A model generated the notes under the pieces. That model searched no databases, was not told the DNA's origin, and saw only the letters and a list, made by a program, of their open reading frames with translations. From IMG/VR virus record IMGVR_UViG_2548876946_000015, positions 1 to 17,929 of that record: a stretch of DNA of 17,929 nt. The stretch is one strand, 5' to 3'. Positions within the stretch are counted from its first letter, which is position 1. Each line of letters starts with the position of its first letter. The translations under genes were made by a program, and so were the position numbers. Source of the DNA: a virus (lineage: Duplodnaviria > Heunggongvirae > Uroviricota > Caudoviricetes). Positions 9,657 to 10,295 of this stretch are shown piece by piece.

Positions 9657-10295
9657 TTAATTGCGAATGGAATCGCGGAACTCTTTGCTTGATAGAAAAG
9701 GATCTGTTCTCCTTAACTCATCATAGTTTTTATTAAACTTTCTTGCTTCACCTGGGTATCTGTTGAACAAAACATTGCAGAAAAAAGAGAGCAATAACTC
9801 ACATATGAATGCTAATACCCTGAAAAATAAAGGTATAAAAAGAAGGGAAGGTTCATTGAAGTCTCTATTCCAAACAAAATAGACAATCATCCCGACATAC
9901 CAAATTGATATCCCTATACTGATGATTGTTCCAACAGAGGTAACTACGATCCCGATTAAGTCGGACAGTCTGTTTGCCAGTAACTCATTTGAGTATCTTG
10001 CAATCATATACCGCCAACATTTTGCAATATCATCCTGATCTGTAGAGTCTTCTGGAATAGCTAGGCTTCTACATATTGAAGTAGCTCTTTTTTTCTCAAC
10101 TCTTTTTGAGAGCCATCCATTAAAGAGATACATCAACACCTGCGTTGCTATTCCTGCACCAAGTGATATCAAAGACATCCCCAAAAATCGCCATCCTGGA
10201 GATAGTGACTGGTACTGCCAAACAAAAAAAATTAAAAAACCCAATGAGCCTATGACATAGGCTGATGTATCGCTATATATATCTATTTTTTTCAT
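9657..10295 (-). CDS. Integral membrane protein with four predicted TM helices, 212 aa; candidate superinfection-exclusion (SieA-position) protein
   Basis: Start preferred at ATG 10295 (MKKIDIY...) because AAGGAG lies 10 nt upstream; the ORF-track extension to 10430 has no RBS and runs through operator-like repeats. Four long hydrophobic segments. Visibly AT-rich compared with the flanking late genes. Convergent with the gp16-like gene, at the locus where P22 carries sieA. Confidence 0.5.
   Translation of the reverse strand: MKKIDIYSDTSAYVIGSLGFLIFFVWQYQSLSPGWRFLGMSLISLGAGIATQVLMYLFNGWLSKRVEKKRATSICRSLAIPEDSTDQDDIAKCWRYMIARYSNELLANRLSDLIGIVVTSVGTIISIGISIWYVGMIVYFVWNRDFNEPSLLFIPLFFRVLAFICELLLSFFCNVLFNRYPGEARKFNKNYDELRRTDPFLSSKEFRDSIRN

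What the first reader, a model, noticed from the sequence alone, without database searches (positions are those of the whole stretch)
9657..10295. AT-rich 4-TM membrane protein in the SieA position with a mis-called longer ORF
The six-frame track extends this ORF to 10430 through the operator repeats, but the only plausible RBS (AAGGAG) precedes ATG 10295. The 212-aa product has four long hydrophobic helices and short charged loops, and its gene is visibly more AT-rich than the flanking late genes, indicating separate acquisition. Its position at the locus where P22 carries sieA suggests a DNA-entry exclusion function, though I see no sequence evidence of relatedness to P22 SieA.
Basis: partly seen in the sequence, partly recalled or inferred. 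Interest (0 to 1): 0.55.

Follow-up and report, generated by a model that had tools for sequence, protein, structure and literature searches.

The report
Known type B SieA exclusion gene

Summary
The ORF is real: 9657-10295 on the minus strand, 212 aa, with AAGGAG 10 nt before the ATG. It has four hydrophobic segments and 36.6% GC, against 48% for the late genes.

- PHROG 7745 "SieA-like", E 1.6e-20.
- BLASTP to P22 SieA: 28% identity over 148 aa, E 2e-24.
- The family motif FxRYPxEAxxFNK is present as FNRYPGEARKFNK.

The protein is 211/212 identical to the sieA product of E. coli HS prophage HS1. That is the "type B" SieA which Leavitt et al. (mBio 2024) showed fully excludes P22 and four relatives.

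The window is a P22-like prophage, 100% identical to one in E. coli Z1322HEC0003. The gene lies between the gene 16 homologue and the tailspike gene.

The 257-aa ORF is a mechanical artefact. Its ATG lies inside a repeated operator-like motif. The extension is absent or interrupted in HS and in 15 of 16 viral contigs. PGAP already calls the 212-aa form.

sieA travels as an 831-bp mosaic module (9513-10343).

Verdict: already known and of low interest. Public records still label the protein "hypothetical protein".

The parts
9657..10295 (-). sieA, type B superinfection-exclusion gene. It encodes 212 aa with four predicted transmembrane segments and the motif FNRYPGEARKFNK at residues 177-189.
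   Evidence: ORF and translation. PHROG 7745, E 1.6e-20. P22 SieA, 28% identity, E 2e-24. 211/212 identical to the E. coli HS protein. PGAP calls the same CDS.
10306..10311 (-). Shine-Dalgarno sequence AAGGAG, 10 nt upstream of ATG 10295.
   Evidence: Sequence. Invariant in P22, HS1, EC28 and phage 611R6 leaders.
10306..10343 (-). Conserved leader (ACACATTATCATCTGGTATCCTGCTCAAAACTAAGGAG). It contains a -10-like TATCAT at 10337-10332, which aligns with the -10 of the annotated P22 PsieA promoter.
   Evidence: Alignments. Present in 14 of 16 IMG/VR loci with at least five different sequences further upstream. The promoter role is inferred; the consensus scan found no promoter on this strand.
10296..10430 (-). 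Non-coding 5' extension of the mechanical 257-aa ORF. Its ATG (10430-10428) is part of an ATGCTTGCAT repeat.
   Evidence: In E. coli HS the same frame has a stop 18 codons upstream of the ATG. The extension sequence is not conserved in 15 of 16 IMG/VR loci.
9513..10343 (.). 831-bp mosaic module holding the last ~40 codons of gene 16, sieA and its leader. It is exchanged as a unit among P22-like prophages.
   Evidence: 99.2% identical to E. coli HS over exactly this span. The left joint at 9513-9516 is seen in 11 of 16 IMG/VR loci, and the right joint at 10343-10352 in 13 of 16.
7806..9635 (+). Gene 16 homologue (ejection or 'DNA transfer' protein, 609 aa), convergent with sieA. This is the class of protein that SieA acts against in incoming phages.
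   Evidence: phrog_770, E 7e-245. 54% identical to P22 gp16, with G532 conserved and P546 replaced by K.
6391..7806 (+). Gene 20 homologue (ejection protein, 471 aa). The N-terminal half is 86% identical to P22 gp20. The C-terminal half is a different mosaic module.
10363..10457 (.). Four operator-like half-sites (TAATGCAAGCAT) in two inverted pairs, between sieA and the divergent P63C-domain gene. They are adjacent to the sieA cassette but are not part of it.
   Evidence: This region is shared with prophages that lack sieA.

Best explanation
The gene is sieA of the 'type B' sequence class, a prophage-expressed superinfection-exclusion gene of a P22-like E. coli prophage.

Proposed mechanism:
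- Its 212-aa product inserts into the inner membrane with four transmembrane segments.
- The predicted topology is N-in/C-in. Two periplasmic loops of about 8 residues are exposed. The loop at residues 60-112 and the C-terminal tail with the FxRYPGEAxxFNK motif face the cytoplasm.
- When another P22-like phage adsorbs, SieA interferes with assembly or function of the DNA conduit built from the ejected proteins gp20 and gp16. The incoming DNA therefore does not cross the inner membrane and the lysogen survives.

Shown here: homology, motif, position, hydropathy, near-identity to the tested protein and the start codon.

Taken from the literature on the 211/212-identical HS1 protein and on P22 SieA: the exclusion phenotype, inner-membrane location, the DNA-injection block, and gp16/gp20 as genetic targets.

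Inferred: topology, and expression from a leader-proximal promoter in this particular prophage.
For: - PHROG 7745 'superinfection exclusion SieA-like', E 1.6e-20, covering residues 45-191.
- tblastn hits only annotated sieA genes of P22 and 37 related phage records, at E 3e-11.
- BLASTP to P22 SieA gives 28% identity over 148 aa, E 2e-24.
- The motif FNRYPGEARKFNK matches the published FxRYPxEAxxFNK.
- The protein is 211/212 identical (L62I) to E. coli HS ECHS_RS01600. That gene sits in prophage HS1 directly after the gene 16 homologue.
- HS1 sieA (EcHS_A0321) is the type B gene shown to exclude P22-like phages as fully as P22 sieA (PMC10883804).
- The gene occupies the P22 sieA position, convergent with gene 16 and upstream of the tailspike gene.
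- There are four hydropathy peaks against three in P22 SieA. The extra one is N-terminal, as published for type B.
- K/R counts of 10 and 9 in the proposed cytoplasmic segments, against 1 and 1 in the short loops, fit the positive-inside rule.
- The leader and RBS are conserved with P22 sieA.
- The ORF is intact in 16 of 17 near-identical copies, with 9 synonymous and 10 non-synonymous variant codons.
Against: - No experiment was done on this allele or in this prophage.
- The -35 region used upstream of HS1 and P22 sieA is replaced here by a different sequence carrying operator-like repeats. The simple sigma-70 scan finds no promoter on the minus strand. Expression level in this context is therefore unverified.
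- Equating EcHS_A0321 with ECHS_RS01600 rests on position, gene order and being the only match in the HS genome. It was not confirmed by a direct tag look-up.
- The paper describes type B as having only a ~30-aa N-terminal extension. This protein also has about 15 extra C-terminal residues relative to P22 SieA.
Confidence: 0.93

Rival explanations
1. The gene is a bona fide sieA, but in this prophage it is silent or conditionally expressed. Recombination at the 10343 joint replaced the upstream promoter half with the operator region of the neighbouring P63C-domain gene. Exclusion would then be weak or switchable rather than constitutive.
For: - Homology to HS1 ends 48 nt upstream of the ATG, and a 14-nt gap removes the segment that carries the -35-like TTGATA (HS1) or TTGGTA (P22).
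- An operator half-site at 10365-10374 lies about where a -35 would be.
- The consensus scan finds no minus-strand promoter.
Against: - The -10-like TATCAT and the whole leader are retained.
- The same joint is seen with at least five different upstream sequences in otherwise intact copies, which suggests that the retained leader is sufficient.
- The ORF is intact and identical in a complete genome.
- The exact protein occurs on 935 contigs.
Confidence: 0.1
2. The protein is a membrane protein of unrelated function, such as a holin, a transporter subunit or a lysogenic-conversion factor, that merely occupies the sieA slot.
For: No Pfam, NCBIfam or PADLOC family reaches threshold. The only other hits are sub-threshold ones to EI24/CysZ and an ABC permease, at E 0.04-0.06. 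Other prophages do carry an unrelated gene in this slot.
Against: There is significant and specific homology to SieA, and near-identity to an experimentally tested SieA. PDB hits are all at E >= 0.65.
Confidence: 0.02
3. The true product is the 257-aa protein starting at ATG 10430.
For: The frame is open from 10430.
Against: - There is no RBS before 10430, and its ATG is part of a repeated ATGCTTGCAT motif. That motif also starts a second spurious 'MLAL...' ORF at 10374.
- The extension has no counterpart in HS, where an in-frame stop lies 18 codons upstream, or in 15 of 16 IMG/VR loci.
- HS1 sieA was functional with only 106 bp of upstream DNA.
- PGAP calls the 212-aa form.
Confidence: 0.02

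Closest known systems
SieA of E. coli HS prophage HS1 (EcHS_A0321 / ECHS_RS01600, WP_000717773.1), the 'type B' SieA of Leavitt et al. 2024
   Same: - 211/212 residues are identical, and DNA identity is 99.2% over 9513-10343.
- Same length, start codon, leader and RBS.
- Same position after gene 16 in a P22-like prophage.
- Experimentally, the HS1 protein excludes P22-like phages.
   Different: - One conservative substitution, L62I.
- The DNA further than 48 nt upstream differs. Here it is an operator-repeat region and a P63C-domain gene. In HS1 it is a helix-turn-helix gene.
Phage P22 SieA (type A, 164 aa)
   Same: - Homologous: 28% identity, E 2e-24.
- Shares the FxRYPGEAxxFNK motif and an invariant E-P in the second short loop.
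- Three corresponding hydrophobic segments.
- Same genomic slot and orientation.
- Similar leader and RBS.
- Also AT-rich: 33.7% GC against 49.9% for gene 16.
   Different: - About 30 extra N-terminal residues that form a fourth transmembrane segment.
- About 15 extra C-terminal residues.
- Start codon ATG rather than GTG/ATG.
- P22 has the mnt-arc-ant immI region next to sieA. This prophage has none.
Other injection-blocking membrane proteins: T4 Imm, HK97 gp15, Lactococcus Sie2009, Streptococcus TP-J34 Ltp
   Same: The logic is analogous. Each is a small phage-encoded membrane protein that blocks DNA entry of related phages at the cytoplasmic membrane. HK97 gp15, the Tuc2009 protein and TP-J34 are discussed in PMC10883804. 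T4 Imm and the names Sie2009 and Ltp are from general knowledge.
   Different: No sequence relationship was detected. The PHROG scan at E <= 0.1 returned only the SieA family, and PADLOC returned nothing. According to the paper, HK97 gp15, Sie2009 and Ltp act on long-tailed phages.

Membership tests
SieA superinfection-exclusion family (PHROG 7745; Leavitt et al. 2024) | Detectable sequence homology to P22 SieA | tested here: met
   PHROG 7745, E 1.6e-20, profile positions 15-159 of 164. tblastn to P22 sieA, E 3e-11. Pairwise BLASTP, 28% over 148 aa, E 2e-24.
SieA superinfection-exclusion family | Conserved C-terminal motif FxRYPxEAxxFNK | tested here: met
   FNRYPGEARKFNK at residues 177-189. 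It aligns with P22 SieA residues 145-157. The motif definition comes from PMC10883804.
SieA superinfection-exclusion family | Located in a P22-like (pro)phage between the homologues of gene 16 and gene 9 (tailspike), and transcribed against the late operon | tested here: met
   Gene 16 homologue at 7806-9635 (+), sieA at 9657-10295 (-), and a tailspike gene with P22 head-binding domain ending at 13940 (+).
SieA superinfection-exclusion family | Integral inner-membrane protein with 3 (type A) or 4 (types B and C) transmembrane segments | tested here: inconclusive
   Hydropathy gives four peaks, against three for P22 SieA, and the charge distribution fits N-in/C-in. This agrees with the published TMHMM result. 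Actual membrane location cannot be tested with these tools. It was shown experimentally only for P22 SieA.
SieA type B (HS1-like) | N-terminal extension of about 30 aa with an extra transmembrane segment, and close identity to HS1 SieA | tested here: met
   P22 residue 14 aligns with residue 44 here. The extra hydrophobic segment is at 10-26. 211/212 identical to the HS protein.
SieA superinfection-exclusion family | Blocks DNA injection by P22-like phages, and is overcome by changes in gp16/gp20 | not testable with these tools
   Shown for P22 SieA and for the HS1 protein, which is one residue different (PMC10883804).
Other exclusion or defence membrane proteins (T4 Imm, HK97 gp15, Sie2009/Ltp, PADLOC systems) | Sequence match to the family profile | tested here: not met
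   The PHROG scan at E <= 0.1 lists only phrog_7745. PADLOC gives 0 families. Pfam and NCBIfam give only sub-threshold noise.

The most novel reading that the evidence does not exclude
In this prophage the sieA-B cassette has been recombined at its conserved leader onto a four-operator control region shared with a divergent P63C-domain gene, and the usual -35 region has been lost. sieA might therefore be regulated by whatever binds those operators rather than constitutively expressed.

More broadly, the conserved leader (GGTATCCTGCTCAAAACTAAGGAG) may mark a hot-swappable cassette slot. Its alternative occupants, such as the 109-aa membrane-anchored coiled-coil protein phrog_5962, could be uncharacterised exclusion proteins.
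Probability: 0.12. Interest if true: 0.35.

Novelty: already known. Interest (0 to 1): 0.1.

Why it matters
Scientifically it adds little, because the gene's function was published in 2024 for a protein that differs by one residue.

It has practical value for annotation. None of the 20 named proteins among the 40 members read from the 189-member 90%-identity cluster carries a functional name. This includes the exact protein, which is seen on 935 contigs, and the RefSeq entries in the two genomes examined: all are labelled 'hypothetical protein'. No Pfam or NCBIfam model matched it, so type B SieA goes unrecognised in routine annotation.

It also predicts that lysogens carrying this prophage resist P22-like phages. 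That is relevant to phage typing, transduction and phage therapy in E. coli and Salmonella.

The recurrent mosaic joints and the shared leader give a small, clean example of how exclusion cassettes are swapped among P22-like prophages.

Tried and rejected
- Profile and structure-sequence scans gave no usable match. Pfam, NCBIfam and PADLOC returned nothing at threshold. The PDB sequence search returned only chance hits at E >= 0.65.
- Megablast of the region against the phage collection found no phage carrying this gene. Only the flanks matched.
- A degenerate-pattern scan of GTDB species-representative genomes with a SieA A+B alignment found no relative. The likely reason is that representative genomes lack this prophage and the patterns chosen were type-specific. 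I did not repeat it.
- The sigma-70 consensus scan found no minus-strand promoter upstream of sieA. The promoter assignment therefore rests only on alignment to the annotated P22 PsieA.
- The two terminator-like hits inside the CDS were dismissed as chance.
- A search for further copies of the operator half-site in the window found none beyond the intergenic cluster. The count at 2 mismatches was not above chance.
- A 2026 preprint on the P22 translocation channel that mentions SieA could not be retrieved.
- I deliberately did not run the 13-CPU-hour protein searches or structure prediction. Identity with a characterised protein had already settled the question.
- The holin/transporter idea and the 257-aa form were considered and rejected (see rival explanations).

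Full report
**Observation.** The mechanical ORF list shows a minus-strand ORF at 9657-10430 (257 aa). Its only internal methionine is at ATG 10295, which gives a 212-aa product. AAGGAG lies at 10311-10306, 10 nt before that ATG. Nothing resembling a ribosome-binding site precedes ATG 10430.

The 212-aa protein has four hydropathy peaks, at residues 10-26, 42-58, 113-142 and 149-176. They are separated by two 8-residue loops with 1 K/R each and a 53-residue charged loop with 10 K/R. A 36-residue tail with 9 K/R follows.

The gene is 36.6% GC, against 48.4% for the late-gene block 1-9635. One qualification applies. Third-position GC is 35.2%, the same as in the adjacent gene 16 (35.9%). Most of the AT excess sits at codon positions 1 and 2, so it reflects the Phe/Ile/Leu/Lys/Asn-rich composition of a membrane protein.

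**Identity.** The tools find it clearly.
- The PHROG library returns one family, phrog_7745 'superinfection exclusion SieA-like', at E 1.6e-20 over residues 45-191.
- tblastn against 50,697 phage records hits only the sieA genes of P22 and 37 relatives, at 27% identity and E 3e-11.
- Pairwise BLASTP to P22 SieA gives 41/148 identities, E 2e-24.
- FNRYPGEARKFNK at residues 177-189 matches the motif FxRYPxEAxxFNK. Leavitt et al. (mBio 2024, PMC10883804) describe that motif as the best-conserved feature of the family.
- Pfam, NCBIfam, PADLOC and PDB sequences give nothing at threshold. This explains why public records call the protein hypothetical.

**Near-identity to a tested protein.** Megablast against complete E. 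coli genomes finds the gene in 21 of 5,426 genomes, including strain HS. The HS gene, ECHS_RS01600, lies directly after the gene 16 homologue of prophage HS1. Its product is 211/212 identical to the window protein, the only difference being L62I.

[quoted passage not shown] P22 is type A. Types B and C have an additional N-terminal transmembrane segment. The authors amplified HS1 sieA (EcHS_A0321, type B) with 106 bp of upstream DNA and placed it in single copy in Salmonella. It excluded P22, L, MG40, MG178, LP7 and hybrids carrying L, Sf6 or CUS-3 ejection proteins below detection. The HK620 hybrid escaped partially, exactly as with P22 SieA.

I could not look up the old locus tag directly. 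The mapping to ECHS_RS01600 rests on three points: it is the only match in the HS genome, its position in the prophage, and the ordinal agreement of tags 0321 and RS01600.

**Context.** The window is a P22-like prophage. It carries coat, gp4, gp10, gp26-, gp14- and gp7-like genes, then gene 20 (6391-7806) and gene 16 (7806-9635). After these come sieA, a P63C-domain gene, a tailspike gene with the P22 head-binding domain, a low-GC GDSL-esterase/acyltransferase pair, and intS. It is 100% identical over 57-17929 to a prophage beside a tRNA-Arg gene and yfdC in E. coli Z1322HEC0003. sieA thus sits in the canonical slot, convergent with gene 16, as in P22.

**Start codon.** Several lines agree on ATG 10295.
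- The 24-nt leader GGTATCCTGC(T/A)CAAAACTAAGGAG is nearly invariant, with three variable positions. It is shared by this window, HS1, P22 sieA and even an unrelated gene that occupies the slot in E. coli EC28 and phage vB_EcoP-611R6.
- Upstream of about 10343 the window and HS diverge completely.
- In HS the extended frame has a stop 18 codons before the ATG.
- Among 16 IMG/VR contigs with a 98-100% identical gene, all start at the same ATG. At least five unrelated sequences are seen further upstream.
- ATG 10430 is simply the first three bases of an ATGCTTGCAT repeat. A second copy of that repeat at 10374 starts another spurious 'MLAL...' ORF.
- PGAP annotates the 212-aa form.

**Mobility.** Homology to HS covers exactly 9513-10343 at 99.2% identity: the last ~40 codons of gene 16, sieA and its leader. 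The left joint at 9513-9516 recurs in 11 of 16 IMG/VR loci, and the right joint at 10343-10352 in 13 of 16. This is direct evidence for module exchange and is stronger than the compositional argument. P22 sieA is also AT-rich (33.7%), so low GC is a family trait.

Of the 17 comparison copies, 16 are intact and one is frameshifted. There are 9 synonymous and 10 non-synonymous variant codons, which is compatible with purifying selection.

**Mechanism.** The following is shown in the literature for P22 SieA and, for the phenotype, for HS1 SieA.
- The protein is located exclusively in the inner membrane.
- It is sufficient on its own for exclusion.
- It blocks DNA injection by P22-like phages only.

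The authors' model is that SieA interferes with assembly or function of the gp20/gp16 conduit at the inner membrane.

I add three inferences. First, the charge distribution supports an N-in/C-in four-segment topology. Second, only two 8-residue loops, QSLSPGWR and NRDFNEPS, would face the periplasm. The second loop contains an E-P pair that is invariant between types A and B. Third, the conserved motif and most of the soluble mass are cytoplasmic. This topology favours contact with membrane-embedded gp16 over contact with the periplasmic gp20 tube.

In this prophage's own gp16, G532 is kept and P546 is Lys. The C-terminal half of its gp20 is a different mosaic module from that of P22.

**Residual uncertainty.** The -10-like TATCAT (10337-10332) aligns with the -10 of the annotated P22 PsieA. 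The region that carries the -35-like TTGGTA in P22 and TTGATA in HS1 is replaced here, with a 14-nt gap, by sequence that contains an operator-like half-site at 10365-10374. The simple promoter scan finds no minus-strand promoter. Expression in this context is therefore likely but unproven. The most novel reading left open is that exclusion is regulated through these operators.

**Verdict.** The gene is an already characterised type B sieA, so novelty and interest are low. The useful by-product is an annotation fix, since all cluster members examined are labelled 'hypothetical protein'.

Noticed in passing
window 10363-10457: There are four copies of the half-site TAATGCAAGCAT: 10363-74 (+), 10389-10402 (imperfect, -), 10419-30 (+) and 10445-56 (-). 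They form two inverted pairs. They bracket a candidate rightward promoter, TTGCTT-18-TATAAT (10393-98 / 10417-22), and overlap the ATG (10456) of the P63C-domain gene. This prophage has no arc, mnt or ant gene, so the binding protein is unknown.
   Followed up: partly
window 10306-10343; L004 (P22), L002 (HS), L005 (EC28), L006 (phage vB_EcoP-611R6): The leader GGTATCCTGCTCAAAACTAAGGAG is shared by type A sieA, type B sieA and an unrelated gene in the same slot. That gene encodes a 109-aa protein with an N-terminal anchor and a coiled coil (phrog_5962, function unknown). The leader looks like a conserved 5' joint for swapping cargo genes. The 109-aa protein is an untested candidate exclusion factor.
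   Followed up: partly
window 10456-11424 (+): A P63C-domain protein (322 aa; Pfam PF10546 E 7e-14; phrog_2384, unknown function) replaces the mnt-arc-ant immI region of P22 between sieA and the tailspike gene. The same gene, with its operator region, occurs in prophages that do have arc/ant genes (EC28, phage 611R6).
   Followed up: partly
window 11679-13940 (+) (ORF listing; the PGAP start corresponds to 11700): The tailspike has the P22 head-binding N-terminal domain (E 2.5e-65). Its C-terminal part has a weak, sub-threshold SGNH/GDSL hydrolase match (E 8e-4). This hints at an esterase (deacetylase-type) receptor-modifying tailspike rather than a glycosidase.
   Followed up: no
window 13966-16394 (-): A low-GC (30-37%) block lies between the tailspike gene and the integrase gene. 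It holds a GDSL esterase (13966-14661), a 92-aa ORF (14746-15024) and an Acyl_transf_3 O-acetyltransferase-like gene (15354-16394; phrog_3333). It looks like a lysogenic-conversion (O-antigen acetylation) moron. Its pairing with a possibly esterase-type tailspike may be worth a look.
   Followed up: no
window 16772-17929 (-); L003 18435-18509: The integrase is IntS-type. In E. coli Z1322HEC0003 the identical prophage is integrated next to a tRNA-Arg gene and yfdC.
   Followed up: no
window 6391-9635 (+): The ejection-protein genes are mosaic. gp20 is 86% identical to P22 gp20 over residues 1-249 and then unrelated until the last ~25 residues. gp16 is 54% identical overall, with SieA-escape residue G532 conserved and P546 replaced by Lys.
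   Followed up: partly
L021 4001-4637 (IMGVR_UViG_2636415906_000003): One of the 16 viral-contig copies of type B sieA carries a frameshift that truncates the product at 58 aa. This is an apparently decayed copy.
   Followed up: no
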